In this document: positions 13,051 to 29,924 of the stretch, piece by piece
Layout: each line of letters opens with the position of its first letter
Numbering within the stretch: position 1 is the first letter of the stretch
Source: Saccharopolyspora gloriosae
GTDB taxonomy: Bacteria; Actinomycetota; Actinomycetes; Mycobacteriales; Pseudonocardiaceae
Assembly: GCF_022828475.1 (NCBI RefSeq)
Contig: NZ_CP059557.1
Location: forward strand, 2,463,470 to 2,527,469
DNA length: 64,000 bases
Direction: 5' to 3'
Position numbers and translations under genes: made by a program
The notes under the pieces: generated by a model
Databases searched by the model: none
The model's input: the letters and a program-made list of their open reading frames with translations, nothing else
What the model was told of the DNA's origin: nothing

Positions 13051-13283
13051 TCACCTCGGCGGATTCGCCCTGGCCCAGTCGCGGGCTTTGCGGGCGACGT
13101 CGTGGTCGTCGTTCCAGGCGCGAGCGACGGGAACAGTATCGAGAAGGGCGTGGTCGCCGCGTGTTCCGCGTTGGTCCCCGGAGTGCACCGTGAAGGCGAT
13201 ATCGGGGCGCCCCCAGCGCACGGTGATGTCGCGTTCGGGCAGGTAGTGCCAGGCGCAGGGCAGCCCGTAGTTGCGGGGTTTCA
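13051..13283 (-). CDS. hypothetical small protein (77 aa)
   Basis: Short ORF with strong GC3 bias (~85%) and GAGGA 4 nt upstream of ATG; W/H/D-rich composition unlike GC-frame artefacts. No recognisable domain. Confidence 0.3.
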
Positions 13284-14000
13284 TGGAAGTCCTCGCGGGA
13301 AGGCGCAGCGCCGAGGGTTGCTGCGTGGGTGGGGTGTTCCGTGATGCGTCGGGGGCCGGCCGCACGGCCCGGGGAGGGAGAGGACCGTGCGGCCGGAATG
13401 CCGGACAGCGCTCGGGGGAGGGAGAACGCCGCCCGGCCCCCGGATCGGGACTGACCGAAGGACTGGTCAAGTGCCGATCCTTCCGGCGGGGATGGTCGGG
13501 GTTCTCCCCGCCGGAATCTGGTGCCGCCTGGAGGTAGGGCTGAAGGCGGCCCGGGGCTGCTAATGACGATCAGGTGGAACCAAGCAGTCTGGGACGGATC
13601 GAGGCAGGTTCGCGCGTAGCGGTCGAAGGTTCTGGCGAGCCCGCGCAGCTCAGCGGCCAGCTGGCTGCAGTCCCTGGTACGGACCTGACGCGAGTCGGCC
13701 AAGACTGTGGTCAACGCCCCGAGCCGAGCACGAGCCCGCGAAGCCTGGTCGACGACCTCACTGGTAGTCGGGGAAGCGTCCATTCCAGTGACGGACAGGT
13801 ACTCGGTTCTCCGCGCCATTGTTCGCCTCTTCCGTTGAATTCCTCGGTGTCGCAGCAACTACAGAACCGCAGTTCAGGTGCCCATTCCACCCCGATGCCC
13901 GGTGATCTTGCGGGACGTGAAATCCCTGTTGAACCGGGAGGAAACGCGGCACACTGCTGATCACATAGAGTCGCCGCGATCCACGGTGGAAGGGGAACCG

Positions 14001-15017
14001 ATGCCAACCGCGATCCGCAGTGTGCGGCAAGAACAGCGGAACTTGTCAGCCGAGCTTCGCGCCCGGTCGAAGACGTGGGCAGAGGTGGCGGCGGTGTTCG
14101 CCGAGCGCTATCACGTCAACATGCGTGCGGCGTTCCGCCTTGCGCATGGGTGGAGCCAGCGCGAAGCGGCCGACGCCTGGAACGAACGCTGGCCCGCCGA
14201 TCTCAAGACATTTAAGAACTTCTCCTATTGGGAGCAGTGGCCTGCCGACACCGGGCACGCCCCTTCCCTGGAAGTGCTGGGCAAGCTAGCCGCGCTGTAC
14301 GCCTGTCGGCTGTCCGACCTCGTCAGCGACGTGGCCGACTTCCGCTCGGCCGACACCGCTCACCGGCAGAACGAGCAGCTCGCAGCCTTGAACAGCGCCG
14401 ACGACTCAGTGTGCGAATTCGTCACCAGGCTTGACCAGATCGACGTCCACGAGCTGGCGAATCTGGCTACTGCGTGGGCGCGGAGCAACGGCAACAGCCT
14501 CGACCGTCGTTCCCTGTTACTGAAGGTCAGCGCCGCTCTTTCGCTCGCCTCGACCAGCCCCGTCCTCACCGACGATGCGGAAGCCCATGCAGCTTCGCTG
14601 CCGCAGGCGAGTGACGATTTCTCCGGTATCTGGCACAGCCGATACGTCTACCCCAGCACCGGTCGCGGCAACAACTTCACCGGCGAACACTACGTCGTCG
14701 TACGCCAACACGGTGCCCGGCTCCTGGGGCAGAGCGTGCCGCACACGCTCGGGTCACGCCTGCGGCTCGACCTCGGTGTCGAGAAGTCCGTCGCCACGGG
14801 AACCTGGCGGGAAAACACCTCGCCCACCGGTTACTACAAGGGCGCCGCGTTCCACGGCACCCTGCAAATGGTCGCTGACCCCTCCGGTCGTCGTATGACC
14901 GGAATGTGGCTCGGGTTCGGCCGCGACTTCAGCATCAACAGCGGAGAATGGGAACTCACCTTGTGCGAGACCACGATCTCTAAGACCGCCCAACGCGCCT
15001 ACCACGACAAGGTCTGA
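14001..15017 (+). CDS. XRE-like HTH-domain regulator with uncharacterised C-terminal domain
   Basis: 338 aa from ATG 14001 (GGAAGGGGA upstream); N-terminal HTH-like segment ([10 protein letters not shown]); lower-GC than surroundings. Confidence 0.45.
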
Positions 15018-15021
15018 CGGT

Positions 15022-15939
15022 TCAGCTCAGCACAGCCACGATCGTTGTCCCCGGCGCGAAGTCGCCGGACCCAATCCGCTGGAACACGCCGGACATCATC
15101 TTGGCCTCATATACCCAGTCTAGGGCGATACCGTGCCTGGACTGGAAATCCGAGATGAAGCTGTCCAGCTCAGGCTTGCGCTTCGCGTAGCCCCCGAAGT
15201 GGAAGTCGTGGTCCAGCTCCCAGTTGCCGGTCGTCACACCGAATCCCTCGCGCTGTAGTCGCCGTACCTCGCCAGCGAGGTACTGTCCGCCCTTCAAGAC
15301 GGTGAAGCCGAGAGCGCGTTGATGTCCTGCGAGTCCAGCAGCGATGGCGGCCACCGTGCCGCCACTTCCTGTAGCGCAGCACACGACGTCAACATCGACA
15401 TCGATCTCATCCACGACCTCGGCGCAGCCGCGAACGCCAAGTCCGTTGCTACCGCCCTCCGGCAGGAAGTAGCAGGGACCGAATTCCGCTGCGAGCGCGC
15501 CCAGCACGTCAGGTTCGGTCTTGCGCCGGTACGTGCCGCGATCCAAGTAGGTCAGCATCATCCCCCGGCCAACGGCGTAGGCCAACGACTCGTTGAGCGG
15601 TAGGTGCTCCTCACCCCGAACCACTCCGACCGTTTCGAACCCGAAGTAATGCCCTGCTGCAGCCGTCGCCCGGAGATGGTTCGAGAACGCCCCGCCGAAC
15701 GTCAGCAGACGGCTGTCCCTTCGGTCCTTCGCCGCGGCCAGGTTGTACTTCAGCTTCCGCCACTTGTTGCCAGGCACTTCCGGATGGAGGAGGTCATCCC
15801 GCTTCAGCCAAACCCGCACACCGCGCTCGCTCACGCGCTCATCACGCAGTTCAACCAGCGGCGACGGCACCACCACCAGCCCACTGGCCTCAGCCTCCGT
15901 CGGATCCACAGTCCGAGGATAAGGCGCCGGGCGGGTCAT
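15022..15939 (-). CDS. PLP-dependent ACC deaminase/D-cysteine desulfhydrase family enzyme
   Basis: 305 aa; PALP fold pattern, lysine motif FSNHLRATAAAG, GGSNGLG glycine loop; trimmed from a 461-aa six-frame ORF. Confidence 0.75.
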   Translation of the reverse strand: MTRPAPYPRTVDPTEAEASGLVVVPSPLVELRDERVSERGVRVWLKRDDLLHPEVPGNKWRKLKYNLAAAKDRRDSRLLTFGGAFSNHLRATAAAGHYFGFETVGVVRGEEHLPLNESLAYAVGRGMMLTYLDRGTYRRKTEPDVLGALAAEFGPCYFLPEGGSNGLGVRGCAEVVDEIDVDVDVVCCATGSGGTVAAIAAGLAGHQRALGFTVLKGGQYLAGEVRRLQREGFGVTTGNWELDHDFHFGGYAKRKPELDSFISDFQSRHGIALDWVYEAKMMSGVFQRIGSGDFAPGTTIVAVLS

Positions 15940-15968
15940 GAAGGAGGTAAAGGCGGGCCTCAACGGAA

Positions 15969-16991
15969 CTAGGCGTCGTCGCCCCGTGAGATGGCCAGCG
16001 CGGCGGCCTTCACCGGTGCCCAGCCGCTGCGGGTCTCGTGCCTCTTGCCGTCGTCGGCGTTCCAGTAGTTGAGGTCGTAGTCGCCGTCGTCGTCGCCGGG
16101 ATCGCCGTCGGGGTTCTCCCCGTTGTTCTTGAGCGTGCGGATTCCGCAGTGCGTGACTTGTCGCTCGGGCTCGTTGCAGGCGTCGTTGGCGGGCGTTCTG
16201 TTGCTGTCCCAGTACCGGTACTTGTGATCGGCGTGGTGGCCCAGGTCGATGGCCGAGTTCCCGTTGACCGTCTCGTCCTGGTTGGATCCGACGAAGCTCC
16301 AGTCCGTCGATTTCGCCCAGTCGTCGGTCAGCTTGTAGTCGTGCAGCACGTCGATGAACTTGGAGTCGGGGTTCATCTGCTGCCACTGGGTCGTGCCGTT
16401 GTTGCACGAGTCCTTGGGATCGTCCTTGTCCTCGCAGATCACACCGTTGTGCGGAGTTCCGAGGGTGACGATCTGGTCGACGTTGATCTTCGGGAAGTTC
16501 TGTTCGCCCCAGTGCTCGTGGCCGAACATCGCGGTTCGCGTGATCAGCCCGCCCATCGAATGAGCCACGATGTTGACCGGTTCGTCGCCGTGCTTCTTCT
16601 TGATGTAGGCGGCGAGGTCTTGGGCGATGTACTGGATTTTGGTGTCGCGGGTGGCGTCGTTCTCATCCGCGGGATTGATGTCCACGTCGCACTTGTCGTC
16701 CGGGTAGTAGCCCACGGTGATGAGCTGTTTCTCGTCCCAGCCGTGGTCCTTGAAGTAGTCCAGCGCCGGACCCCACGTCTTGGAGCAGTTCTTTCCCTTG
16801 TCCTTGTTGCCGTCGCCGTCCACGTCCTCGTAGCCGTAGCCGTGCACGAAGTAGACGGGCAGGTCCTTGGCGCCCTTCTCGGCTTCGGTTCCGGCTGCCT
16901 GGGCGCTCAAGGCAGGTCCGGCGAGCGCTATCAGCGAGGTCGTGGACATGACGGCGATGAACCGCGATGATTTGTTGAACACAGTTGCCAA
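15969..16991 (-). CDS. secreted lipase, Lipase_2 (Bacillus LipA-like) alpha/beta-hydrolase
   Basis: Signal peptide then PVYFVHGYG and VNIVAHSMGG (GxSxG nucleophile elbow) as in Bacillus LipA; D/N/K-rich composition and lower GC. Confidence 0.75.
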   Translation of the reverse strand: MATVFNKSSRFIAVMSTTSLIALAGPALSAQAAGTEAEKGAKDLPVYFVHGYGYEDVDGDGNKDKGKNCSKTWGPALDYFKDHGWDEKQLITVGYYPDDKCDVDINPADENDATRDTKIQYIAQDLAAYIKKKHGDEPVNIVAHSMGGLITRTAMFGHEHWGEQNFPKINVDQIVTLGTPHNGVICEDKDDPKDSCNNGTTQWQQMNPDSKFIDVLHDYKLTDDWAKSTDWSFVGSNQDETVNGNSAIDLGHHADHKYRYWDSNRTPANDACNEPERQVTHCGIRTLKNNGENPDGDPGDDDGDYDLNYWNADDGKRHETRSGWAPVKAAALAISRGDDA

Positions 16992-17614
16992 CCCCTCAGT
17001 TTCCCCAGTTGCGAGTGGCCGTACGGCACCGATCTTTTCGCGGCCGACACGCTAGCAGGGCCGGATCGTGCTGTGGGGTGGATCGCCCGAGGTCCGAAGC
17101 GGATCGGCGTGAAGTTCCTTCGCGGGCCGGGACCGGTGAAAAGGACACTGCCGGCACGGATTCGACGCTCAGATCGGTGCGTCGGATCCGCATGGGGACC
17201 AGGAATCGACCGGTGACGTCGCGTAGTTCCTCTTCGTCGTCGGGGTCATCGAGTTCGCTGAGGTGACCAGAAACCTCCGCATCCGCGAAGCGATCAAATC
17301 CGGCGTCCGAGCCATGTGATCCGAACCGGCGACCGATTCCGAGAAGGCGCGGATCGGCCGGACGTCCAGTGCGAGTGCGGCTTCGGCCGCTGCGCGGATC
17401 GGCCGCCGTCCGCAGGCGACAGCCTCTCGCGTCGACGGCGCAGGAACTCGGCGAGACCGGGCGGATCGATCATTCGGCGAGCGTGAGCAGAACTGCCGCC
17501 GGAGCCAGGACCACGTTGGTCGTGGACGGGGTGGTTATGAGTTCGGTGGTGGCCGGTTCGTGCTGCGATGGTGTGGAAGGTCTCGTGCGCACCCCGTCAC
17601 CCTGAACCGGGGTT

Positions 17615-18124
17615 GTGGGTAGGGCCCGCCAAGTGCTTGCCACCATTCTCGTCGAGTTTCCGTGGATGACGACGGTTGCTCTCGTGGGGCTGGTCGTCGT
17701 CGGACCCCTTGCCGGAGCTTGGCTGGCTCCGAGGTCGCGGATGACGGGAGTCCTGCTCGGACTGTCGACCTTGGTGATCGCGCTGGCCACTCTTTTTCCT
17801 GCGAGCGGCGAGCCGGTGGTCGGCTGCACGATCGAATGGGACTTCCCCACCCTCGGCGCGGTGGAGCTCATGGGAAACCTGGTCTTGTTCGTTCCAGCGG
17901 TTCTGCTGGCGGGAGTCTTGACCCAACGGCCACTCGGCGTGCTGATCGCAGCGAGCGGGGCTTCGTTGCTGGTCGAGGTGATTCAAGCGTTCGCTACCGT
18001 GCTCGGGAGGAGCTGTTCGACCAACGATTGGCTCTCCAACACGCTCGGTGCCTTGCTGGGGACTGTCCTGGCTGCGGCTGCGCTGCGAATCGCGCGGCCC
18101 ACGGCCCGGCCACAGCAGGTCTGA
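17615..18124 (+). CDS. VanZ family membrane protein
   Basis: 169 aa, 4 TM; NLVLFVPAVLLAG and C-terminal pattern typical of VanZ-like proteins. Confidence 0.6.
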   Translation: MGRARQVLATILVEFPWMTTVALVGLVVVGPLAGAWLAPRSRMTGVLLGLSTLVIALATLFPASGEPVVGCTIEWDFPTLGAVELMGNLVLFVPAVLLAGVLTQRPLGVLIAASGASLLVEVIQAFATVLGRSCSTNDWLSNTLGALLGTVLAAAALRIARPTARPQQV

Positions 18125-18296
18125 GCGGTTGCTGCACGAGGCGCGGGGGAGGTCGTCCGTTGACGGCTCCGCACAAGCGCGACGTCGTGGGACCGTGTTC
18201 TCCAGGGTCTGGCGGAGCCCGCCGGCCTGCGCGGTCGGCGGGCTTCCGGGCGTCAGTGCTGAAGCCGGGGCGAACCGTTGATCGGGGCCTCGTCGG

Positions 18297-18584
18297 CTAT
18301 TTCTCGTACTCGGGTCCGGTTCGAGTGGCCGCATCTCCCGCCAGCGCGGCGGTCGGCGCCGGAACCGGATCCGGATGCCAGAAATCCGCTCCCTTGATGT
18401 TCAGCGCCTTCGGATCGAAGACCGGGTCGATGCCGAGCCTGCGCTGCCGGTCGTAGTCGCGGCAGACCTTGTACACGACCGGGAACAGCAGCATGAGGCA
18501 CACGAGGTTGACCCAGGTGATGAGGCCGAGTCCGATGTCGCCCGCCGGCTGATCACTCGGCGGGCGTCCTTCCGCCCCGGATCA
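18297..18584 (-). pseudogene. C-terminal remnant of an AGCS (alanine/glycine:cation symporter) family transporter
   Basis: In-frame translation from stop at 18582: ...DIGLGLITWVNLVCLMLLFPVVYKVCRDYDRQRRLGIDPVFDPKALNIKGADFWHPD, matching the conserved C-terminus of AGCS symporters; the ~350-aa N-terminal part is absent (replaced by the PfkB/NCS1 operon). Confidence 0.5.
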
Positions 18585-19512
18585 CGGCGTCGACCTCGGC
18601 GGCGATGGGGGCAGTGGCGGGACCGGGCCGGGTCACGGCGATCGCGGCCGCGACACCGGCCCGGCGCACGGCGGCCTCGAGGTCTTCACCGGCCGCCAGC
18701 CGCGCCGACATCACCCCGGCGTGGGCGTCGCCGGCACCGTTGGTGTCCACGGCGTCGACCTCGGGGGAGGGGCAGCTCAGCACGTCCCCGCCGGGGCGGG
18801 AGATGAGCGCGCCGTGCGATCCGGCGCGCAGCACCACGGTGCGGCCGGTGGCGGTGGCCAGCGCTGCCGCCACGGTGGCGCGGTCCTCGGTCTCGGCGTT
18901 CGATCCCAAGCGCCGCAACAGGATCAGCGCCTCCCGCTCGTTCGTGGTCCACACGTCGGCGCGGTCCAGCAGGACGCGCACCGAGTCGAGGCCGACGTCA
19001 CCGATCACGGGGGCGGGATCCACGACGACGGAGCACCCGGCCGGAACCGTCGGCAACCACTCCAGCAGCGCCGCGCGGTTGGCGTCGTGGACGAGGGAGT
19101 AGCCGGACACGTAGACCACGTCGCCGTTGCCCGGCTCGGTGCGGCGCAGCTGAGCGACGTCCACGGCGCTCTCGGCTCCGGCGGTGGAGACGAACGTCCG
19201 CTCCGCGCCGTCATCAACGAGGGCGACGCTGAACCCGGTGTCGGCGCCGGGATCGGCGGGGGCGGCGAGCTCCACGTCCTCGGGCGCCAGCGCCGCGCGC
19301 ACGATGTCCCCGAACGGGCCGGTGCCGTGGCCGCCCGCGTACACGACCCGAGCACCGTCGCGCGCGGCGGCGAGCATGACGTTCACGCCGCCGCCCGCGA
19401 GGAACTCGTGTCCGGAGGCGAACACGTCGCCGCCGGGAGCCGGCACCGAGGGCACTCGCAGCACGAGGTCGACGACGGCCTGTCCGGTGTGGATCACGCG
19501 GCCGGGACTCAT
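18553..19512 (-). CDS. PfkB-family carbohydrate/nucleoside kinase (ribokinase-like)
   Basis: ~318 aa; N-terminal GG motif (FLAGGGVNV), C-terminal DTNGAGDAHAG anion-hole motif; ATG overlaps stop of upstream permease (ATGA). Confidence 0.85.
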   Translation of the reverse strand: MSPGRVIHTGQAVVDLVLRVPSVPAPGGDVFASGHEFLAGGGVNVMLAAARDGARVVYAGGHGTGPFGDIVRAALAPEDVELAAPADPGADTGFSVALVDDGAERTFVSTAGAESAVDVAQLRRTEPGNGDVVYVSGYSLVHDANRAALLEWLPTVPAGCSVVVDPAPVIGDVGLDSVRVLLDRADVWTTNEREALILLRRLGSNAETEDRATVAAALATATGRTVVLRAGSHGALISRPGGDVLSCPSPEVDAVDTNGAGDAHAGVMSARLAAGEDLEAAVRRAGVAAAIAVTRPGPATAPIAAEVDAVIRGGRTPAE

Positions 19513-20984
19513 TTCGCACCCGCCGCGGACCGGAGGCCGAACACCGCGTAGAGCAGCCCGCCGAGGCCGGCGGCGAGGATCCACGACATGCCGTTGGTTC
19601 CGATCCACGTGTCGTACATCGGCCCCGTGTACAACGGAACATCGCCTGGAGTGACCTGCATGAACAGGGCCGCGACGACGATCGCGGCCAGCCACGACCC
19701 GAGGGCGGACCAGCGCACGCCGCCGGTGTAGTAGTAGGCGCCCCGCCGGCTCAGGTCCAGGAGTGCTTCGGGGTCGTAGTCGCGGCGCCGGATCATGTCG
19801 ACGAGGAAGATCCCCACCCACGCCGAGATCGGCACGGCCAGCAGCGAGATGAACGTCGTGAACGGTCCGTAGAACCCGTCGGCGACGAGCAGGAACAGCA
19901 GCGACCCGATCGTTGTGATGACCACGTCGACGATCACCGCGTACACCCGCTTGACCCGCAGCCCGAGGGTGAGGGTCGTCAGGCCCGCCGAGTACACCGA
20001 CAGGTGGTTGGACAGCAGCAGGCCGATGAAGGAGATCACCATGTAGCCGACTGCGATCCAGGTCGGCAGGCTGTCGCGGATGGCATCGAGGGGATTCGCG
20101 GCCGTGGCGATCGCCGGATCGGACGCGCCGAGCACCGACCCCATGCCGATCATGACCACCAGCGGGATGCCCGCACCGGCGGCCGCGGACATCACCAGCG
20201 GCAGGGCGCGCACGGTCGGGGCCTGGTAGCGGGCCATGTCCGCACCGGAGTTCGCCCAGCCGATGCCGGTGCCCGCGACGATGGTGCCGATCCCGGTCAG
20301 CACCGCGGCCAGACCGCCGCTCGGTGTCCGCCCCACTTCCGCCCAGTCGATGTTGACGACCAGGAATGCCAGGAGCAGCAGGTTGACCGCCCCGAAGATC
20401 CAAGTGGACCACTTCTGGACGACCAGGATCACGGCGTGGCCCATGCCGGACACGGCGACGGTGAATCCGACGAACAGCGCCACACCGGCGACGGCGACCA
20501 GCGGCGCGGATTTCGCGTCCTCACCGGTGCCGGTGAGCAGCGAGACGCTCGTGACGATGGCGAGAGCGGCCGTCGAGGTGTTCACCGTCTCCCAGCCGAG
20601 CCGCGACACGAGCGCGATCGCCGTCGGCCCCGCGTTGCCGCGAGTGCCGAAGACGGCGCGGGACAAGGTGAGGCTCGGCGCCCCGCCGCGCCGCCCGGCG
20701 ACGGAGATCAGGCCGACGACGGCGAAGGACCCGAACGCGCCGATGACCGCGACGATGAGGGCCTGCCACACGGACAGGTCGAGGGCCACGAGGCTGACCC
20801 CGAGCGGCATGCCGACCACGGAGATGTTCGCGGCGAACCACACCCAGAACAGCTGCATCGGATTCCCGCGGCGTTCCGCAACGGGCACGGGTTCGATACC
20901 GCGCTGCTCCACCGCACCGAGCGCGCCGGTTTGCGGGGGTTCTAAGGGTTTCGCCGCCGTGGATCCGGTGGGAGTCTCGGACAC
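19509..20984 (-). CDS. NCS1 family nucleobase:cation symporter (purine-cytosine/allantoin permease-like)
   Basis: 491 aa, 12 TM; N-terminal ERRGNPMQLFWVWFAANISV pattern typical of NCS1/CodB transporters. Confidence 0.8.
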   Translation of the reverse strand: MSETPTGSTAAKPLEPPQTGALGAVEQRGIEPVPVAERRGNPMQLFWVWFAANISVVGMPLGVSLVALDLSVWQALIVAVIGAFGSFAVVGLISVAGRRGGAPSLTLSRAVFGTRGNAGPTAIALVSRLGWETVNTSTAALAIVTSVSLLTGTGEDAKSAPLVAVAGVALFVGFTVAVSGMGHAVILVVQKWSTWIFGAVNLLLLAFLVVNIDWAEVGRTPSGGLAAVLTGIGTIVAGTGIGWANSGADMARYQAPTVRALPLVMSAAAGAGIPLVVMIGMGSVLGASDPAIATAANPLDAIRDSLPTWIAVGYMVISFIGLLLSNHLSVYSAGLTTLTLGLRVKRVYAVIVDVVITTIGSLLFLLVADGFYGPFTTFISLLAVPISAWVGIFLVDMIRRRDYDPEALLDLSRRGAYYYTGGVRWSALGSWLAAIVVAALFMQVTPGDVPLYTGPMYDTWIGTNGMSWILAAGLGGLLYAVFGLRSAAGAK

Positions 20985-20988
20985 TGGT

Positions 20989-22017
20989 TCACCTCATCTT
21001 CGTTGACGACCGCCGCACGGCGAGCAGCCGCCGCGCGAGCGTGGCCAGGTCCAGGCCGTTGATGTCGAGGACGCGGCGGACCGCTGCGTCCGGGAACGCC
21101 TCGGCGCCGTGCACGGCGCCGAGCACGGCCCCCGCCATGGCGGCGACGGTGTCGGTGTCGCCGCCGAGGGACGCCGCGGTGCACAGCGCGTCGAACGGGA
21201 ACTCGGCGCCGCGCTCGACGAGCAGGAGCGCGGCCACGACGGACTCCTGCGACTGCACCGACGTGCCGACCACCTCGTAGAGGAACGACTCGAAGTCCTC
21301 GGTGCCGAGCCCTTTCGCGTACCGGCGGAAGGCGTTGAACCGCGCCGGAACGGAGGCGCCCGCCACCCAGTGCCCGCGTGTCTCGCCCTCCCGGGCCGCT
21401 GCGTCGGCGGCCTCGAGGGCTCCGGCGGTGTCCGCTCCGTCGACGCCCGCCGAGACGGCGGCGGCGATGGCGCAGGCGGCGGAGATCCCCAGTCCGGTGT
21501 TGTGGGTGACGCGACCCGCTTCGACGACCGCGTCGATCAGGCGCTCGCCGCGCGGGTGAGCGACTCCGACGGGGGCGATACGCATCGCGGCGCCGTTCGT
21601 CGTCCCGGAGCGGCCGGTCTCCTCTACGGAGACGCCTGCCTGGAGCTTCGCCAGGGCCGCGTTGGTGGAGGGGCCGAGGAGATCCAGCGAGCCGCGCTCG
21701 AGCATCGCCTGTTCCCAGGCGATCAACTGCTCGGCGAAGGCGTGCGCGTCGATGCTCCCGGAACCGTCGCTGATCAGCCGCGCGACGATCATCGCTTGGT
21801 CGGTGTCATCGGTGACGGAGGCGGCGGCCATGCCGGGCGCGATGGGCTGATCGGCGGCGCCGTCGACGAAGTCGCTGATCCGGCCGTAGCGCTCGCGGAT
21901 CCGTTCCCGCGGCATGGACTGGGTCGGCATGCCGAGGGCGTCGCCGATGGCGAGCCCGACGAGCGCGCCGTACGCGCGCTCGAAAGCGGGATCCGCGGCG
22001 TCTTGAGCGGCGGTCAT
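20989..22017 (-). CDS. ADP-ribosylglycohydrolase family protein
   Basis: 342 aa from ATG at 22015-22017 (overlaps GntR stop, ATGA); motifs GALVGLAIGDALG, TDDT, C-terminal GGDTDT typical of ARH fold. Confidence 0.85.
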   Translation of the reverse strand: MTAAQDAADPAFERAYGALVGLAIGDALGMPTQSMPRERIRERYGRISDFVDGAADQPIAPGMAAASVTDDTDQAMIVARLISDGSGSIDAHAFAEQLIAWEQAMLERGSLDLLGPSTNAALAKLQAGVSVEETGRSGTTNGAAMRIAPVGVAHPRGERLIDAVVEAGRVTHNTGLGISAACAIAAAVSAGVDGADTAGALEAADAAAREGETRGHWVAGASVPARFNAFRRYAKGLGTEDFESFLYEVVGTSVQSQESVVAALLLVERGAEFPFDALCTAASLGGDTDTVAAMAGAVLGAVHGAEAFPDAAVRRVLDINGLDLATLARRLLAVRRSSTKMR

Positions 22018-22740
22018 CGTTCGTCTCCGAAGGTGTGCGCGAGGGTGAAGTACCGCGGGTCGAGCAGCGAGACGACGTGCTCGGCGAACCGGCCGTCGTC
22101 GGTGAACGAGGTGCGGGCGGTGCGCAGGAAGACCGTTCCCGCGTCGTGGCGCAGGATCTCGGCTTCCCGTTCGTCCAGCGGGTGCACGTCCGCGCGCTGG
22201 GTGCCGCGCGTGGAGAGGTACCCGGCCTGCACGAGGGTCTGGGAGATCGAGCCCTGGATCAGACCGGTCTCCGGCAGCTCCGCGAGACGGCCGTCGGCGG
22301 GAACCGTGGAGCACTCGAAGGAGATCGGCTCGACGCTGTCCGCGGAACGCAGCAGCCGGACGCGGCGGATCGCGATGCCCTGCTCCAGCCGGACCTCGTC
22401 GGGAAGCAGCGGAACGTCGGAGCGCTGCACGCGCTCGATGCCGAGGACGGCGACGGTGATCTGGCTGCCGGTGGAGGCGAGGGACTGAGCCCAGCCGCGG
22501 TCCTGGCTCAGCTGGTGTCCGTCGAAGATGACGAACGAACCACGGCCGGTTTCGGTGGAGATGAGCCGCAGGTGCTGGAGTTCGCTGAGGGCCTGTCGCA
22601 CGGTGCCCCGCGAGACGTCGAACTCCTCGGCCAGGCGCAGTTCCCCGTCCAGTTTGTCACCGGGACGGTAGTGACCGTCGCGGATGCGCCGCGCGAGGGT
22701 GTCGACGATCTGCTGCCGCTTCCCCGGCACCTGTCTATAC
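22014..22740 (-). CDS. GntR family (HutC subfamily, UTRA effector domain) transcriptional regulator
   Basis: N-terminal winged HTH (GDKLDGELRLAEEFDVSRGTVRQALSEL) plus UTRA-like C-terminus; start chosen at ATG 22738-22740; first gene of the ARH-permease-kinase operon. Confidence 0.8.
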
Positions 22741-22755
22741 ATGTTGGTACATGTA
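22736..22755. promoter_or_regulatory. palindromic/direct-repeat motif at GntR gene 5' end (candidate autoregulatory operator)
   Basis: TACATGTTGGTACATGTACA: two TACATGT copies 11 nt apart containing perfect palindrome GTACATGTAC; local AT-richer patch in divergent promoter region. Confidence 0.3.
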
Positions 22756-22889
22756 CAGCACGACGGCCCGTGGGGCAAGCGGGACGTTCTCGATCGGCCG
22801 AGGCTCCCGCCCGTCTCGTGCCGGGCCGGGGCGAACTCGTCGCTCCGAATTCCCTGTATGTCAGCCGAATCCATCCGTCTGGGGAGTAG

Positions 22890-24065
22890 ATGGACATCGA
22901 GTTCAGGTTCGAAGCTCGGGAAGGCGACGACAGTTCACACGATGAGCTTCGAACGCTCTACGCCCATCTGGGAGGCGACTTCGAACTTCAACGGCACGCG
23001 CGCATATCCGTTCGGCGCGAGTCGTTGCAGTCGGGAGAGCTGGGCGCTGCGGAGGTCGTACTGGCCGCCGTGTCCGCCGGCCTGGGGGTGGGCCGGCTCG
23101 CGATCGCCATCAGGGCGTGGCGCGACGCGATGAACCACCCGACGGCGCTCGCCCTCACCGGCCGGTCCAGCGGGTACGCGCTCGCGGACAACGATCCCGG
23201 CCGCGTGTTCCCGGTGGAGCTCGGCGATCCCGAAGAGCTGAACGTCGCCGCGGACACCGCCCTGACGTTGCGCGGCACGGATGGCAGACCCTACGGGGGT
23301 CGAATCGACGGCGAGGGCATGGTCGTCGAGCCCGGCACCGACACCGTGCTGGTCGGCTCGGAGAAGGGGCCGTCGATCCGCCGTTTCCGGCTCAGCGACG
23401 GGCACGAGGTGGGAACTCCGCTGCCCATTCCGGAGAAGCTGCGCACCGAGCCGTTCGGTGGAGCGCACCAGGGACGCACCACCGAGTCGCTGGCCGCGAC
23501 GGCCGATGGTCGCTACCTCTACGCGGGCTGGGAGGCGCCGCTCAACGACGACGGCGATCAACGAGGGCGAAACCGCCTGCGAATTCAGCGCTATCACGGT
23601 GAACCGGGCGGAAACTACGTCCCGGACCGCCAATGCGCGTACGAGACCAGCACCGGCATGTACTTGGCGGAGCTCGCCGTGACCGAGCAGGATCGGCTGC
23701 TCGCGCTGGAACGGCAGTACGTCGAAGGACTCGGCAACACGGTGCGAGTCGTCGAGCTGCGCCTCACCGACGACAAGGACGTGACGAACACTCCCGCACT
23801 GGCCGAAGTCTCGGCCGATGTGTTCGTCCGCAGCTCATTGCTGTTCAGCCTCGGCGACTGCCCGGCGGGCGGTCCAGAGGTGGTCGCCGGAAAACAACGG
23901 CAGCCGAATCCGTTGCTGGAGAACGTCGAAGGCATGGCCGTAGGCCCCGAAGAGGCCGACGGCCCGGCGAAGGGCTCGCGCCTGCTCTACCTGATCAGCG
24001 ACGACAACGAGAACAACGCCCAGATAACCCGCCTGTACACCTTCCGCATCCGGCTCACCGAATAG
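22890..24065 (+). CDS. EACC1-like N-terminal domain fused to phytase-like (esterase-like activity of phytase family) beta-propeller-type domain
   Basis: N-terminal ~105 aa (DELRTLYAHLGGDFELQRHARISV...GLGVGRLAIAIRAWRD) resembles, from memory, the 'effector-associated constant component EACC1' family; C-terminal ~285 aa has ENVEGMAVGP and LLYLISDDNENNAQITRLY motifs reminiscent of the phytase-like family. Confidence 0.5.
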   Translation: MDIEFRFEAREGDDSSHDELRTLYAHLGGDFELQRHARISVRRESLQSGELGAAEVVLAAVSAGLGVGRLAIAIRAWRDAMNHPTALALTGRSSGYALADNDPGRVFPVELGDPEELNVAADTALTLRGTDGRPYGGRIDGEGMVVEPGTDTVLVGSEKGPSIRRFRLSDGHEVGTPLPIPEKLRTEPFGGAHQGRTTESLAATADGRYLYAGWEAPLNDDGDQRGRNRLRIQRYHGEPGGNYVPDRQCAYETSTGMYLAELAVTEQDRLLALERQYVEGLGNTVRVVELRLTDDKDVTNTPALAEVSADVFVRSSLLFSLGDCPAGGPEVVAGKQRQPNPLLENVEGMAVGPEEADGPAKGSRLLYLISDDNENNAQITRLYTFRIRLTE

Positions 24066-25897: not shown

Positions 25898-26083
25898 CTG
25901 ATTCCTTACTCCGAATGGGCGGTAGGTCTTCCGGTGGAGTCGGCCCTGCCGCCAACATGGCCGAGGTGAAGATCGAACCGGTGCTCCGTTGACCGATGTT
26001 GTGGTCGGCCCGGCCGTGGAAGGAGCAGCGTGCCCAACTGCCGCCTGCGCGCGGCCGCGACCGCATCGGGTTGAGGAGTGCGA

Positions 26084-28852
26084 GTGCTGGATCCGCGCGC
26101 TGAAGCGGTATTGATCTTTGATCAGTCGGCTGGTCGGTTTCAGGATCGGACAGCCGACATATCCGCGGTCGAGCCTTTGGCGGACGGGCGGGTCGGCATC
26201 GTGTTCAACGGTGGCAAGCGCTATCCGTACGGATCGGGGCGTGTGCGGGCTCTTCGCGACCCGGAACGCATCGCGCTCAACGGAGAAGTTCGGGTCGAGG
26301 TGCGCGGAGCTGTCTGGGAAAGCGCCGTCGAGATCGCCACGTTCGCTGATTCGGAGGGCGCGTGGGCCAGGGTTTTCTACCGGCGCAAGGGAAACGAGAC
26401 GTACCGGACCTATCCTGATTCGGAAGTACGCGTTCTCACGTCCGCGACCGGATCCGGGGCGGCGGCCGAGGTGTTCCGCTACTGGCGGGACGTCGTGGCC
26501 GGGCTCCCCGGTGACGATCCGCTGGTGCGGCCGTACGGCAGGCTGAGTTTCGTCAACCCGGAGAGCGCGCTGGGGGCGTACCTGGCCGGTGCACCGATCA
26601 CGCCGCGCGAACCGACCGGTGTCGCGATCTTCCCGTTCCGGTGCAACCTGAGTCAGCGCCAGGCGGTCGAGAACGCCCTCACCCGTTCCGTTTCGGTCAT
26701 CCAAGGTCCGCCCGGGACCGGAAAGACCGAAACCATCCTGAACCTGATCGCCAACATCACCGTGCGAGATCGGACCGTCGGCGTCGTGTCGCACAGCAAC
26801 TCCGCCGTCGACAACGTGCGGGAGAAGCTCGTTGAACTGGGCTTCGGGCATGTGTTGGCGAGCCTCGGAAAACAGGAGAAGCGCAAGGAGTTCTTCGCCG
26901 GGCAGGCCGATCGCAACGCACGGGTCGCCGGCTTCGCCGCCGAGACTCCGCCGCCGCCCGAACCCGGGCGGCTGGCCGACGTGGACCGGCGCTTGCGCCG
27001 CCTGCAGTCCACCGAACGCACCTTGGCGCAGCGACGGCACGAGGTGGCGGCGTACGGATTGGAGCGGGAGCACTTCGAACGGCACCTGCACGGGGACGAG
27101 ATGCCCGACCTCTCCGGCCTCCCGCTGCTTCGCCGCTCCTCCGGGCGCATCTTGGACTACCTGGCCGAAAGCGAGCTGGAGCGCAACGGTGCTCGTCCCG
27201 GGCTGATTCGGCGGATCCGGAAGTACTTTCGCTACGGCTCGGTGCGCGGCCTCGACCCCGAGGACACCGACGTGGTCCTCCGGCTGCAACGTGCCTACTA
27301 CACGAAGCGGATCGCCGAGCTGGACAAGGAAATCGCGCAACTCGACGAGGAACTGAGACGAGCGGACTTCGACCGGTTGGCGCAGGAACATCGGCAACTG
27401 TCGGTGCAGGCCCTGCACGCTCACCTCGGCGCTCGGTACGGCGGGCTCGCGCGGAAGGAGTACGACGGGGAGACGTATCGGCGGAGCAAGGAATTCCGGG
27501 ACTTCATCGAGGATTACCCGGTCCTGTTGAGCACCTGCCACTCGTTGAGCTCCAGCATCGAGGACGGTTTCCTGCTCGACCACCTCATCATCGACGAGGC
27601 CTCCCAGGTCGACCCACTAGTGGCCGGATTGGCGCTGGCGTGCTGCCGCAACCTCGTCGTGGTGGGAGATGCCGAGCAGTTGCCGCCGATCCCGGCAGCC
27701 TCCGCAGCCGACCACGAGGCACCGAGCCCCGCGTACGACTGCAGACGGAGCATCCTCGGCTCGCTGGAGACGTTGTACGGCGAGGCGCTCCCGAGCGCGC
27801 TCCTGCGCGAGCACTACCGGTGCGACCCGGCGATCATCGGGTTCTGCAACAAGAAGTTCTACCGCGACGAGCTCATCCCTTACACGACCGGTGGCGACGG
27901 CCGCCCGATGATCGTGGTGCGCACGGTCGAAGGAAACCACATGCGCCGGCATCGGACCGGGGGCCGCTCGAACCGCCGCGAAGTGGAGGTCATCGAGACC
28001 GAAGTGATCCCGGACCACTGCGCCGAGGTCGACGCGGCCGACATCGGCATCACCACGCCCTATCGGCTCCAGGCGGACAAAGCCCGCGACCTGCTCGATC
28101 AGATCGCGTCCGACACCGTGCACAAGTTCCAAGGCAGGCAGAAGAAGGTGGTCGTGATGACCACCGTCCTCGACGAAACGTGGCGCGGTCGCAGCGGTTT
28201 GCCGTTCGCCGACGACCCGCACCTGATCAACGTGGCGGTGTCGCGGGCGATCGAGCGCTTCATCCTGGTGACGAACAACGACATGCTGCCGACCAGCCGG
28301 CACATCCGGGACCTGATCGGTCACATCCGCTACCACGATCTTGACGAGGACGTCGTGGACAGCGCGGTGGTCTCGATCTTCGACCTGCTCTACCAGCAGT
28401 ACTCGTTACGGCTGCGATCACTGGCCGGGCGGCTGAAGAACGAGCGGGCCTACAAGTCCGAGGACATCGCGTGGACCGTGCTCCACGAGGTCCTCGCCGA
28501 GCAGCGCTACGAACACCTGACCGTCGTCGCTCAAGTGCTGGTGAAGAGCCTGTTCCCGGACCTGAGCGTGCTCACGCCGGAGCAGGCGAAATACGCCGGG
28601 AATCGAGCATCGGTCGACTTCGTCATCTACAACCGCGTGACGAACCGGCCGCTGCTGGCGATCGAGGTCGACGGCTTCGCCTACCACGAGAACAAGCCGG
28701 AACAACTGCGGCGGGACGAGCTGAAGAATCAGATCTTCCGCACTCACGACATGCCGCTGTTGCGATTGCCGACCACTGGAAGCGGCGAGCAACGTCGAAT
28801 CCGGCAGGCATTGGACGAAGCCGAAACCCACTGGGCGCAGCAGGCGCAGTGA
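26084..28852 (+). CDS. SF1 (Upf1/DNA2-like, AAA_11/AAA_12) helicase with C-terminal DUF2726 (PD-(D/E)xK-like nuclease fold) domain
   Basis: Walker A GPPGTGKTE, DEASQ Walker B box, QGRQKKVVVMT motif VI region; C-terminal ...ASVDFVIYNRVTNRPLLAIEVDGFAYHENKPEQLRRDELKNQIF matches DUF2726; ~190-aa N-terminal domain unassigned; GTG start after GAGGAG. Confidence 0.8.
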   Translation: MLDPRAEAVLIFDQSAGRFQDRTADISAVEPLADGRVGIVFNGGKRYPYGSGRVRALRDPERIALNGEVRVEVRGAVWESAVEIATFADSEGAWARVFYRRKGNETYRTYPDSEVRVLTSATGSGAAAEVFRYWRDVVAGLPGDDPLVRPYGRLSFVNPESALGAYLAGAPITPREPTGVAIFPFRCNLSQRQAVENALTRSVSVIQGPPGTGKTETILNLIANITVRDRTVGVVSHSNSAVDNVREKLVELGFGHVLASLGKQEKRKEFFAGQADRNARVAGFAAETPPPPEPGRLADVDRRLRRLQSTERTLAQRRHEVAAYGLEREHFERHLHGDEMPDLSGLPLLRRSSGRILDYLAESELERNGARPGLIRRIRKYFRYGSVRGLDPEDTDVVLRLQRAYYTKRIAELDKEIAQLDEELRRADFDRLAQEHRQLSVQALHAHLGARYGGLARKEYDGETYRRSKEFRDFIEDYPVLLSTCHSLSSSIEDGFLLDHLIIDEASQVDPLVAGLALACCRNLVVVGDAEQLPPIPAASAADHEAPSPAYDCRRSILGSLETLYGEALPSALLREHYRCDPAIIGFCNKKFYRDELIPYTTGGDGRPMIVVRTVEGNHMRRHRTGGRSNRREVEVIETEVIPDHCAEVDAADIGITTPYRLQADKARDLLDQIASDTVHKFQGRQKKVVVMTTVLDETWRGRSGLPFADDPHLINVAVSRAIERFILVTNNDMLPTSRHIRDLIGHIRYHDLDEDVVDSAVVSIFDLLYQQYSLRLRSLAGRLKNERAYKSEDIAWTVLHEVLAEQRYEHLTVVAQVLVKSLFPDLSVLTPEQAKYAGNRASVDFVIYNRVTNRPLLAIEVDGFAYHENKPEQLRRDELKNQIFRTHDMPLLRLPTTGSGEQRRIRQALDEAETHWAQQAQ

Positions 28853-28887: not shown

Positions 28888-29538
28888 TCAGCCGGGGAAT
28901 CGGATCAGTGCCGCTGTGGACAGGTCCCCGCCGTAGTACAGCTCCTGGGACTCGACGAGCCGCGCGCCGGGCATCAGGGCGAGGTAGTCGTCCACCGAGC
29001 GCAGCCGGGACCACTCGCTGACCGGGATCGCCGCCTGCGCGTACTCCACGAGCACGAAGTATCGGCAGGAGCGGGAGATCGACCGGCAGATCTCGGCCAG
29101 TGCCGCCTCGTCGAGCACGTGCATGAGCACCCATACCGACACGGCGACGTCGATCTTCCGGCCTTCCCACGGCAGGTCCTCGGCGCGCGCGAATTCGAAA
29201 TCCACATTGGACAGATGTGCGCATGATGCCCGTGCTTCGTCCAGCATTCCGGGAGTCATGTCCAGTGCGGTGACCCGGCCCGCGTGGGCGGCCAGAGTCG
29301 GGGTCAGGCGGCCGATCCCGCAACCGATCTCCAGCACGGTGGACAGCGGGCGAGCGAGCTCCCGAGCCGCGGTCCGCAGGCCCGCCGACACCGCATCGCG
29401 GGTCCGTTCCGTCGTGGCCGCGTTGTGCTCGGCAGGCTGAGAAGCCCGCATCACGCGGGCCAGGCCGTCCCGGCGCGACCGCTGCCGCCATTCTCCGGCC
29501 ACATCGGTCGTGGAAACGGTGGAAGTGTTGTTGTGCAC
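28888..29538 (-). CDS. class I SAM-dependent methyltransferase (small-molecule type)
   Basis: Motif I VLEIGCGIGRLT, acidic motif II; 216 aa (true start may be internal). Confidence 0.7.
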   Translation of the reverse strand: MHNNTSTVSTTDVAGEWRQRSRRDGLARVMRASQPAEHNAATTERTRDAVSAGLRTAARELARPLSTVLEIGCGIGRLTPTLAAHAGRVTALDMTPGMLDEARASCAHLSNVDFEFARAEDLPWEGRKIDVAVSVWVLMHVLDEAALAEICRSISRSCRYFVLVEYAQAAIPVSEWSRLRSVDDYLALMPGARLVESQELYYGGDLSTAALIRFPG

Positions 29539-29924
29539 GAAGTATCTCCCCAGTGTGGAGGTCCACCGCGAGTTCCGTTGCGGCGATCCCGCGCCCGGCG
29601 GGAAACCGGATTCCGCAACGGTGACTCGCGGATATCGACGGAGCCGGCCGCGATGACGTCCGGTACGCGAGTCGTGACCGAGAACGTGCGCGGAATCTGA
29701 TCACAATCGCGATCATGAACTTATCCGAGCCGAAAGCTGAAAGAACAGCCATCGGCCGTGAATGCCGCCCATCTTCACTCCTCAGAGTGATGGCGTCGGG
29801 TCGGGTGAAGACCTCCTTCCACCGGCTCCGCCCAGGTGGAGGAGGCATTCACCTGAGGCTTGTGAACCTTTTCGTCGGCCGTGTGCGTGATACCTGCGTA
29901 GGCGGTGTGAGGGGAGGGGATCAC

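What the first reader, a model, noticed from the sequence alone, without database searches (positions are those of the whole stretch)
22890..24065. EACC1-like 'effector-associated constant component' fused to a phytase-like domain
The first ~105 residues (hydrophilic start, DELRTLYAHLGGDFELQRHARISV, then a Gly/Ala-rich hydrophobic stretch GLGVGRLAIAIRAWRD) resemble, from memory, the EACC1 family. EACC1 normally accompanies caspase/CHAT/trypsin-type effectors in NTP-dependent conflict systems. Here the N-terminal domain is fused to a ~285-aa domain with motifs of the 'esterase-like activity of phytase' family (ENVEGMAVGP, LLYLISDDNENN, LYTF), which would be an unusual effector partner. The gene is divergently paired with the GntR operon and sits at the edge of the mosaic region.
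Basis: inference. Interest (0 to 1): 0.6.

Follow-up and report, generated by a model that had tools for sequence, protein, structure and literature searches.

The report
Caspase-deleted remnant of an EACC1 defence gene
The EACC1–phytase-like fusion is real, but it is what remains after an in-frame deletion removed the protease and membrane-spanning middle of a known type of bacterial suicide/defence protein, so it is a crippled relic and not a new effector design.

Summary
The ORF (22890-24065, +, 391 aa) exists, and both domain calls made from memory pass Pfam's curated cut-offs: EACC1 (aa 13-90, 40.9 bits) and Phytase-like (aa 90-373, 160 bits). The interpretation needs correcting. The phytase-like beta-propeller is not an unusual partner. 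It is one of the commonest C-terminal modules of "EACC1-associated caspases" (91 of 120 listed homologues). There it follows a TM helix and is probably an extracytoplasmic sensor. At least 20 actinomycete protein clusters carry a single-chain form: EACC1, caspase, TM, propeller (745-807 aa). The window protein aligns collinearly to these: aa 1-85 match aa 1-85, and aa 86-391 match about aa 465-773 (about 70% identity for both halves to Nocardia sp. BMG51109 WP_024799391.1). About 378 codons (1134 bp) are missing, in frame. The lost segment holds EACC1's C-terminal segment, the whole caspase, the TM helix and the propeller's first two strands. The direct fusion is a singleton (Saccharopolyspora gloriosae). 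Two related genomes lost the caspase by different lesions. No caspase lies in the 64 kb. As a protease-triggered pore system the gene is most likely dead. The propeller still shows purifying selection (dN/dS about 0.3), so some residual function, or a recent deletion, cannot be excluded.

The parts
22890..24065 (+). Whole ORF, 391 aa plus stop: EACC1 stub joined directly to a phytase-like beta-propeller (WP_243794339.1)
22890..23144 (+). EACC1 stub, aa 1-85: N-terminal (autoinhibitory-type) segment plus the hydrophobic helix. It aligns to aa 1-85 of intact single-chain relatives (71% identity to P0121, 62% to the Actinokineospora auranticolor EACC1).
23040..23111 (+). Gly/Ala-rich hydrophobic helix of EACC1, aa 51-74 (LGAAEVVLAAVSAGLGVGRLAIAI; 4 Gly, 7 Ala). 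It is the only hydrophobic segment left in the protein. It carries a lineage-specific Q69R change.
   Evidence: helix described in PMC7159879
23142..23147 (.). Deletion junction, codons T85|A86 (ACG|GCG). To the left, homology to EACC1. To the right, homology to the inside of the ectodomain (P0121 aa 464/465 onward). DNA homology to the sister species starts at 23143. Only a 2-3 nt CG.G overlap is present.
23145..24062 (+). Phytase-like (PF13449) beta-propeller, aa 86-391. It lacks the family's first two beta-strands and the conserved N-terminal Cys. It retains C324 (GDCPAG) and has a new C249.
22881..22886 (+). Shine-Dalgarno-like GGGGAG just upstream of the ATG. The first 12 residues (MDIEFRFEAREG) are identical to those of P0121, which supports this start.
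22743..22889 (.). Divergent intergenic region shared with the GntR-family regulator gene. It has no homology to the upstream regions of the intact relatives, and no sigma-70-type consensus was found.
22014..22742 (-). Context only: GntR/UTRA regulator, the first gene of a GntR, ADP-ribosylglycohydrolase, cytosine/purine permease, PfkB kinase operon (18553-22742). The operon is conserved at 88.5% DNA identity in Saccharopolyspora sp. NFXS83.

Best explanation
The gene is an in-frame internal-deletion derivative of a single-chain conflict protein with the order EACC1, caspase, TM helix, extracytoplasmic phytase-like propeller. In intact relatives the inferred mechanism is as follows. The propeller outside the membrane senses a signal. 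The cytoplasmic EACC1-type caspase is activated and cleaves EACC1 between its N-terminal inhibitory segment and its hydrophobic helix. The released fragment oligomerises into membrane pores and kills the cell (shown for a Ktedonobacter EACC1/caspase pair; inferred here). In S. gloriosae a deletion of about 1134 bp joined codon 85 of EACC1 to the codon equivalent to about residue 465. It removed EACC1's conserved C-terminal segment (V..HR..V.AL; modelled here at low confidence), the linker, the whole caspase, the TM helix, and the first ~45 residues after it. That last stretch includes two propeller strands and a conserved Cys. The product therefore has no protease. It lacks the EACC1 tail that, in the published model, carries the strands proposed for autoinhibition and ring assembly. 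It also lacks the normal export and anchor signal. It is most likely inert as a death or defence switch. What persists is a promoter, a start codon and a hydrophobic stub that drive expression of a slightly truncated propeller. The propeller may still have some use, or the deletion may simply be too recent for decay to show. Shown: domain identities, collinearity, deletion endpoints, uniqueness, absence of a caspase in 64 kb. Inferred: sensing role, topology, loss of function.
For: Domains. The intact relative P0121 (WP_024799391.1, 773 aa) has EACC1 at 14-94, Peptidase_C14 at 140-362 with YYSGHG and LDCCYSG, a TM at about 398-425, and Phytase-like at 459-756. Query aa 1-85 align to P0121 aa 1-85 (71%), and query aa 85-389 align to P0121 aa 464-772 (69%). 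At DNA level, gene nt 1-247 align to nt 1-247 (81%) and nt 254-1164 align to nt 1391-2313 (76%), so 1134 bp are missing in frame. All 19 alignable single-chain relatives match both halves collinearly, with 366-391 residues in between. At least 20 clusters have the single-chain architecture. Only the query itself has EACC1+Phytase-like without a caspase, in a singleton cluster. Both halves are equally similar (62%) to the same Actinokineospora auranticolor locus. Independent decay occurs in relatives. In A. auranticolor the caspase lacks about 88 residues holding the catalytic His and Cys and is frameshifted. Saccharopolyspora sp. NFXS83 keeps only the TM plus propeller (homology from P0121 aa 360). 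There is no caspase homology anywhere in the window. In P0121 the deleted stretch contains two confident propeller strands (435-438, 441-447) and conserved C437, S447, D448 and L450. EACC1 mechanism: bioRxiv 10.1101/2025.11.14.688446. System description: PMC7159879.
Against: The ORF is intact and shows no detectable decay. Propeller dN/dS against the sister species is 0.29, within the range of the flanking operon genes (0.14-0.28). Branch-specific counts give omega of about 0.35 on the window branch. In a leave-one-out test the query is not an outlier at invariant columns in either half (1/13 and 4/83). This fits continued function of at least the propeller as well as it fits a recent deletion. 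AlphaFold2 still folds the truncated propeller confidently. A caspase encoded elsewhere in the 6.9-Mb genome could not be searched for. The direction of change (deletion, not insertion) is inferred from parsimony across about 110 caspase-containing relatives, not observed.
Confidence: 0.85

Rival explanations
1. Domesticated survivor. The deletion origin is accepted, but the product is a working, selected protein. EACC1's hydrophobic helix, freed of its shielding C-terminal segment, serves as a signal-anchor that displays the propeller on the cell surface. There the propeller does whatever the stand-alone secreted Phytase-like proteins of actinomycetes do (binding or hydrolysis of an envelope or environmental ligand).
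For: The propeller is under purifying selection on both Saccharopolyspora branches (omega about 0.35). All 52 family-wide conserved columns (>=95%) in the retained region are kept. The sister species independently kept a TM plus propeller after losing EACC1 and the caspase. About 28 of the 120 listed homologues are Phytase-like-only, and most full-length ones have signal peptides, so the domain can work on its own. The hydrophobic helix lies about 10 residues before the propeller.
Against: The deletion removed two N-terminal propeller strands and the conserved Cys437, the likely disulfide partner of C324. The flanking charges do not favour an N-in/C-out orientation (N flank +4/-3, C flank +3/-1). 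The helix carries E55 and R69. According to the published work, uncleaved EACC1 behaves as a soluble monomer. The selection signal averages over time before the deletion, so it cannot prove present function.
Confidence: 0.3
2. Trans-activated effector. The stub is still a substrate for an EACC1-type caspase encoded elsewhere in the genome. Cleavage near G49-E50-L51 would release a helix-propeller fragment as a new kind of membrane-active effector. This is closest to the first reader's idea.
For: The N-terminal segment, the conserved PGELG-like motif (SGELG here) and the Gly-rich helix are retained. Actinomycetes often carry several EACC1-caspase systems with different C-terminal domains (PMC7159879).
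Against: No other example of this architecture exists among 1.84 billion representative proteins. The conserved EACC1 C-terminal segment, which in the published model carries the strands proposed to mediate ring assembly, is deleted. The conserved Pro of the motif is changed (P48S), and an Arg sits in the helix (Q69R). No caspase lies in 64 kb.
Confidence: 0.07
3. Recombination of two unrelated genes (a stand-alone EACC1 gene and a stand-alone phytase-like gene), or an assembly artefact that collapsed 1.1 kb.
For: The propeller gene lies on the opposite side of the GntR operon in the sister species, so rearrangement has occurred at this locus. The junction has only 2-3 nt of overlap.
Against: Both halves have the same nearest relatives at the same identity (P0121 71%/69%; A. 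auranticolor 62%/62%), and both are collinear with one gene. The stand-alone secreted propellers are more distant (44-49% identity). The junction is in frame. No repeat that could collapse an assembly is evident in the intact gene. The contig is 6.88 Mb.
Confidence: 0.05

Closest known systems
Single-chain EACC1-caspase-TM-Phytase-like proteins of actinomycetes (e.g. WP_024799391.1, Nocardia sp. BMG51109, 773 aa; also Saccharothrix, Actinokineospora, Phytohabitans, Nonomuraea)
   Same: Same start (MDIEFRFEAREG). 71% identity over aa 1-85 and 69% over the propeller. Same domain order at both ends.
   Different: The window protein lacks the central ~378 residues: the EACC1 C-terminal segment, the linker, the caspase with its His/Cys dyad, the TM helix, and the first ~45 residues of the ectodomain.
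Two-gene EACC1 + 'caspase, EACC1-associated type' system ('System 4' of Kaur et al. 2020, PMC7159879; NCBIfam NF047832). Mechanism from Evans et al. 2025 (bioRxiv 10.1101/2025.11.14.688446): caspase cleavage converts EACC1 into a pore-forming toxin.
   Same: EACC1 domain above the Pfam cut-off, with the Gly-rich hydrophobic helix. The propeller is orthologous to the C-terminal module of at least 91 such caspases.
   Different: No caspase gene or domain in the ORF or within 64 kb. EACC1 is truncated after the helix. EACC1 and the variable domain are joined directly in one chain.
Stand-alone secreted Phytase-like (PF13449, 'esterase-like activity of phytase') proteins of Kribbella, Actinomadura, Nonomuraea, Streptomyces (about 360-370 aa)
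   Same: Same propeller family (44-49% identity) and similar overall size.
   Different: Those proteins begin with a signal peptide followed by the conserved CSxxAxLLGFSDxLDKT...GLSAL segment. The window protein has an EACC1 stub instead and lacks that segment.
E. coli YjiK C-terminal domain (PDB 3qqz, SdiA-regulated family) and bacterial glutaminyl cyclases (3mbr, 3nok): five-bladed beta-propellers
   Different: Only 10-16% sequence identity. There is no detectable sequence relationship to any solved structure, and no shared function can be inferred.
Bacterial gasdermin-protease modules (analogy only)
   Same: The ancestral system has the same logic: a latent pore former is released by an adjacent or fused protease (stated by Evans et al.).
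   Different: Unrelated fold and family. In the window gene the protease half of that logic is gone.

Membership tests
EACC1 domain family (Pfam PF19953) | Match to the family HMM above the curated gathering score | tested here: met
   40.9 bits (whole protein) and 45.2 bits (aa 1-110) against a cut-off of 23.6; aa 13-90, profile 2-79/107. Intact EACC1 proteins also match only up to about profile position 78-100, so the partial profile match is not in itself a sign of truncation.
EACC1 domain family (Pfam PF19953) | Single conserved hydrophobic helix with a patch of small (Gly) residues | tested here: met
   aa 51-74, LGAAEVVLAAVSAGLGVGRLAIAI, with 4 Gly and 7 Ala; Kyte-Doolittle peak 2.09. 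Feature as described in PMC7159879.
EACC1 domain family (Pfam PF19953) | C-terminal extension after the helix (the strands that pair with the N-terminal segment and are proposed to mediate ring assembly) | tested here: not met
   Alignment with 20 relatives shows that the conserved segment after ...NRPT (V..HR..V.AL) is absent. The sequence switches to propeller at codon 86. In my P0121 model this segment has low confidence and was drawn as a helix.
EACC1 domain family (Pfam PF19953) | Site-specific cleavage by the partner caspase and pore formation | not testable with these tools
   Biochemical property. Only the SGELG motif at the equivalent position can be seen.
EACC1-caspase conflict system ('System 4'; NCBIfam NF047832 caspase_w_EACC1) | A caspase-superfamily peptidase encoded immediately 3' of, or fused to, EACC1 | tested here: not met
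   No Peptidase_C14 or NF047832 hit in the ORF. tblastn with three EACC1-type caspase proteins finds no caspase homology anywhere in the 64-kb window. The downstream gene is a Beta_elim_lyase enzyme. Positive controls: P0011 scores 233 bits to NF047832, and P0121 matches Peptidase_C14 at 53.6 bits.
EACC1-caspase conflict system ('System 4'; NCBIfam NF047832 caspase_w_EACC1) | Variable C-terminal domain attached to the caspase (here TM + Phytase-like) | tested here: inconclusive
   The variable domain is present and orthologous (57-69% identity to the C-termini of such caspases). However, it is attached to EACC1 and not to a caspase, and the TM helix is missing.
   Neighbours are a GntR operon, Beta_elim_lyase, an SF1 helicase-DUF2726 and a methyltransferase. 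A vWA protein lies 11 kb away in a separate SPFH/PP2C/kinase cluster. Canonical loci L004 and L005 have no NTPase beside the pair either.
Phytase-like family (Pfam PF13449) | Match to the family HMM above the gathering score | tested here: met
   160.4 bits against 27.6; aa 90-373, profile 12-283/284. The sister species' complete ectodomain gives 185.5 bits with profile 2-283.
Phytase-like family (Pfam PF13449) | Beta-propeller fold | tested here: met
Phytase-like family (Pfam PF13449) | Export signal (signal peptide or preceding TM helix) and the conserved N-terminal CS..A.LL..SD.LDK segment of the mature domain | tested here: not met
   The segment and its conserved C, S, D and L columns fall inside the deletion. 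The only hydrophobic element is the EACC1 helix, and its orientation is not predictable from flanking charges.
Phytase-like family (Pfam PF13449) | Phosphoesterase/phytase activity | not testable with these tools
   The family name is an annotation. There is no solved or characterised close relative.

The most novel reading that the evidence does not exclude
The caspase-less fusion is not junk but a selected exaptation. A death effector's pore-forming helix has been re-used as a membrane anchor (or as a substrate for a caspase encoded elsewhere), so that the former sensor propeller now acts on its own at the cell surface. This would be a natural example of a suicide/defence module being dismantled and its parts domesticated. 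Saccharopolyspora sp. NFXS83 would be an independent parallel, having kept its TM plus propeller.
Probability: 0.2. Interest if true: 0.5.

Novelty: new variant of a known kind. Interest (0 to 1): 0.25.

Why it matters
It matters mainly as a correction. Read alone, the fusion looks like a new EACC1 effector pairing, but comparison shows a deletion remnant of a catalogued system. Three modest points remain useful.

1. Phytase-like propellers placed after a TM helix are a major, so far undiscussed C-terminal module of EACC1-type caspases. 'Phytase' and 'propeller' do not occur in the main text of the mechanistic paper, and 'phytase' does not occur in the founding paper. This implies that many of these systems sense something outside the cell.

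2. A clade of at least 20 protein clusters packs pore former, protease, TM and sensor into one polypeptide. That is a compact model for mechanistic work.

3. Three related Pseudonocardiaceae genomes lost the caspase by three different lesions while keeping the propeller ORF. This illustrates how costly suicide modules decay and which part outlives the rest.

Tried and rejected
1. NCBIfam and PADLOC scans of the protein and of its N-terminus gave no hits. PADLOC 2.0 sees only a generic 'caspase' model even in the intact P0121.

2. The word-index homology search with aa 1-95 alone returned nothing. The exhaustive HMMER search was needed to find P0121. P0121 was also missed by the first full-length search.

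3. I tested for decay of the EACC1 stub relative to the propeller. The first conserved-column tests suggested an asymmetry: 4/26 deviations in the stub against 0/52 in the propeller. Those tests used different sequence sets and were biased, because the reference sequences define the conserved columns. With one sequence set the difference is not significant (P=0.14). In a leave-one-out design the query is not an outlier in either half. I rejected the asymmetry. The branch-specific excess of non-synonymous changes in the stub (7 syn, 15-16 nonsyn) is also not significant (P=0.2-0.3).

4. The promoter/terminator consensus scan around the gene found nothing.

5. The sequence search of the PDB found no relative. 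Foldseek against the PDB gave only generic propellers at TM-scores of 0.3-0.4.

6. The genome-contig scan returned only 4 loci and did not include S. gloriosae or BMG51109. I therefore could not search the rest of the S. gloriosae genome for other EACC1-type caspases.

7. No homology exists between the regions upstream or downstream of the window gene and those of the intact relatives, so the ancestral genomic site could not be reconstructed.

8. I looked for caspase or EACC1 fragments that would explain why the gene lies on the other side of the GntR operon in the sister species. None were found.

Full report
OBSERVATION. Its codon-position GC profile matches real genes of this roughly 69% GC genome (GC3 0.83). 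A GGGGAG ribosome-binding site lies just upstream at 22881-22886. Pfam confirms both domain calls above the curated thresholds. EACC1 (PF19953) covers aa 13-90 at 40.9 bits against a cut-off of 23.6. Phytase-like (PF13449) covers aa 90-373 at 160.4 bits against 27.6. NCBIfam and PADLOC have no model that hits the protein. The exact protein is in public databases as WP_243794339.1 of Saccharopolyspora gloriosae, named 'effector-associated constant component EACC1'. It sits on a 6.88-Mb contig and forms a singleton cluster.

WHAT IS KNOWN ABOUT THE PARTS. Kaur et al. (PMC7159879) defined EACC1 as the 5' gene of a two-gene 'System 4'. The 3' gene encodes a caspase followed by any of about 50 variable domains, some of them placed after TM helices. 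Evans et al. (bioRxiv 10.1101/2025.11.14.688446) showed for a Ktedonobacter pair that EACC1 is itself the effector. The caspase cuts it once, the N-terminal fragment is autoinhibitory, and the C-terminal fragment permeabilises membranes. That fragment comprises the hydrophobic helix plus, in their model, two beta-strands, and it is modelled to form large rings held together by those strands. Neither paper's main text mentions phytase, and the Evans paper does not mention propellers.

THE DECISIVE COMPARISON. Only the query itself carries EACC1+Phytase-like among the 120 best homologues of the full protein. Of the rest, 91 are proteins of about 650 aa with Peptidase_C14+Phytase-like, which NCBI names 'caspase, EACC1-associated type'. 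The other 28 are Phytase-like only. In Sphaerisporangium (L004) and two Streptomyces loci (L010, L011), a Pfam-confirmed EACC1 gene of 109-116 aa lies directly upstream of such a caspase gene. The caspase part hits NCBIfam NF047832 at 233 bits. The phytase-like propeller is therefore a common partner of EACC1, through the caspase.

An exhaustive HMMER search with aa 1-95 against 1.84 billion representatives found only 21 hits. The best was P0121 (WP_024799391.1, Nocardia sp. BMG51109, 773 aa). P0121 is a single chain. It has EACC1 at 14-94, a caspase at 140-362 with YYSGHG and LDCCYSG, a hydrophobic TM at about 398-425, and Phytase-like at 459-756. The query aligns to it in two collinear blocks: aa 1-85 to aa 1-85 at 71% identity, and aa 85-389 to aa 464-772 at 69%. 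At DNA level, gene nt 1-247 align to nt 1-247 (81%) and nt 254-1164 align to nt 1391-2313 (76%). That leaves 1134 bp, or 378 codons, missing in frame.

A search seeded with P0121 found at least 20 clusters with the same single-chain architecture, in Saccharothrix, Actinokineospora, Phytohabitans, Nonomuraea and metagenomes. All 19 that can be aligned match both halves of the query collinearly, with 366-391 residues between the matches. All have the His motif, and 19 of 20 match my strict pattern for the Cys motif. The junction lies between codons T85 (ACG, 23142-23144) and A86 (GCG). DNA homology to the sister species begins exactly at 23143. The sequences on the two sides share only a CG.G overlap. 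This is compatible with illegitimate recombination but is not diagnostic in GC-rich DNA.

WHAT WAS LOST. The deletion removed the following:
- The conserved EACC1 segment after the helix (consensus V..HR..V.AL). In the published model this tail carries the strands that pair with the N-terminal inhibitory segment and mediate ring assembly. My P0121 model has low confidence for this segment.
- The linker and the entire caspase.
- The TM helix.
- The first ~45 residues after the TM helix.

In the AlphaFold2 model of P0121, that last stretch forms two confident beta-strands (435-438 and 441-447) ahead of the strand that is first in the window protein. It also holds family-wide conserved residues C437, S447, D448 and L450. 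The intact ectodomain has two conserved Cys (437 and 707). The window protein keeps only the second (C324) and has a lineage-specific Y249C change.

PARALLEL DECAY IN RELATIVES. In Actinokineospora auranticolor (L002), EACC1 reads through into the first ~70 residues of the caspase. The ~88 residues that carry the catalytic His and Cys are missing. The rest is split over two further ORFs. In Saccharopolyspora sp. NFXS83 (L001), homology starts only at P0121 residue 360. The open frame can start at GTG 7896 or 7905, which gives a positively charged N-terminus, the original TM helix and a complete propeller. EACC1 and the caspase core are gone. NFXS83 keeps a segment that S. gloriosae lacks, and the reverse is also true, so the two Saccharopolyspora lesions are independent.

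IS THE REMNANT STILL UNDER SELECTION? Between the two Saccharopolyspora species the propeller has dN/dS 0.29 (dS 0.42). The flanking operon genes and a nearby xanthine-dehydrogenase-type gene range from 0.14 to 0.28 (dS 0.25-0.32). When substitutions are polarised with P0121, the window branch has 35 synonymous and 33 non-synonymous changes, and the sister branch has 29 and 32. That is omega of about 0.35 on both branches. The query keeps all 52 columns that are at least 95% conserved across 116 homologues. An apparent excess of changes in the EACC1 stub (D19E, P48S, Q69R, R83H) did not survive fair testing. There is thus no detectable decay. Either the propeller is still useful or the deletion is recent, and these data cannot separate the two.

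CONTEXT. There is no caspase, STAND NTPase or MoxR-vWA pair beside the gene.
- Left: the divergent operon of GntR, ADP-ribosylglycohydrolase, permease and PfkB kinase, conserved in NFXS83 at 88.5% DNA identity.
- Right: a threonine-aldolase-like enzyme, an SF1 helicase with DUF2726 (its helicase region resembles Mokosh MkoA/MkoC), a methyltransferase, and an SPFH/PP2C/kinase/vWA cluster.

VERDICT. The best explanation (confidence 0.85) is a deletion-derived, protease-less remnant of a single-chain gene with the order EACC1, caspase, TM, propeller. As a triggered pore-forming switch it is most likely inactive. This is an inference, based on the absence of any protease, the loss of the EACC1 C-terminal segment, and the loss of the native TM. 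A residual role for the propeller, possibly anchored by the EACC1 helix, remains possible (about 0.2-0.3). The feature lies close to known systems, as a degenerate variant of a known kind. Interest is low to moderate (0.25). The more useful by-products are the extracytoplasmic propeller as a major sensor module of EACC1 caspases and the single-chain clade.

Noticed in passing
L005:8001-10322 (also L006, L007), and proteins P0142-P0158, P0160, P0176: A clade of at least 20 protein clusters (Saccharothrix, Actinokineospora, Phytohabitans, Nonomuraea, Nocardia sp. BMG51109, metagenomes) encodes EACC1, caspase, TM helix and phytase-like propeller as one polypeptide of 745-807 aa. Substrate/effector, protease and putative external sensor are in a single chain. 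The text of the two EACC1 papers I searched describes EACC1 as a separate small protein. In all three BMG51109-type contigs a Peptidase_S8 gene follows directly.
   Followed up: partly
L002:7073-9089 (Actinokineospora auranticolor): This is an independently decayed copy of the same system. EACC1 reads through into the first ~70 residues of the caspase. The ~88 residues with the catalytic His and Cys are missing. The rest is frameshifted into a 127-aa ORF and a 362-aa propeller ORF with half a TM helix. An NB-ARC/TPR STAND gene lies 6 kb downstream and is probably unrelated.
   Followed up: partly
window 18553-24065 compared with L001:8001-13309 (Saccharopolyspora sp. NFXS83): The propeller gene lies to the right of the PfkB..GntR operon in the window (divergent from GntR). 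In the sister species it lies to the left (convergent with PfkB). All pieces have the same orientation. Its dS (0.42) is higher than that of the flanking genes (0.25-0.32). A transposition, or an old duplication with reciprocal loss (out-paralogues), could explain this. No remnant of a second copy was found.
   Followed up: partly
window 26078-28852 (+): A 924-aa SF1 helicase (AAA_11/AAA_12) with a C-terminal DUF2726 nuclease-like domain. Its helicase region scores 178 and 146 bits to the PADLOC Mokosh MkoC and MkoA models. A SAM methyltransferase is encoded convergently at 28888-29538. This is a possible defence gene.
   Followed up: partly
window 29715-35574 (+): A co-directional cluster: a 444-aa protein with no Pfam hit, a 583-aa SPFH/Band_7 protein, a PP2C phosphatase, a Ser/Thr kinase (weak PADLOC hits to mad6, MkoA and PD-T4-6 kinases), and a vWA protein. 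It looks like a signalling or conflict-type module and was not analysed further.
   Followed up: no
window 13102-18572: This segment is absent from the syntenic NFXS83 locus, where glyoxalase, PucR, FAD-oxidoreductase and ApbA genes lie instead. GC drops to 0.62-0.65 around 14-17 kb. It encodes a lipase/PGAP1-like alpha/beta hydrolase (15969-16991, -) and a PALP enzyme (15022-16407, -). It is probably an acquired or replaced island.
   Followed up: no
window 22731-22759: A palindrome-rich sequence (TGTCTATACATGTTGGTACATGTACA, containing the perfect palindrome GTACATGTAC) overlaps the ATG of the GntR/UTRA regulator gene (22742, - strand). It is a candidate operator of the divergent region. The longest-ORF start at 22874 for GntR is not supported by the orthologue.
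   Followed up: no
L003:1275-7225 (JGI metagenome contig): A Trypco1 (Pepco) gene, a trypsin gene and an S1-domain gene lie immediately upstream of an EACC1-caspase-propeller gene. The latter has a frameshift at about 5435-5490. These are two different protease-activated pore modules side by side.
   Followed up: no
window 23634-23636 (codon 249): A lineage-specific Tyr-to-Cys change (RQCAYE; relatives have RQYAYE) occurs in a protein that has lost one of the two conserved ectodomain cysteines (P0121 C437). It might be a new partner for C324, or it might be coincidental.
   Followed up: no
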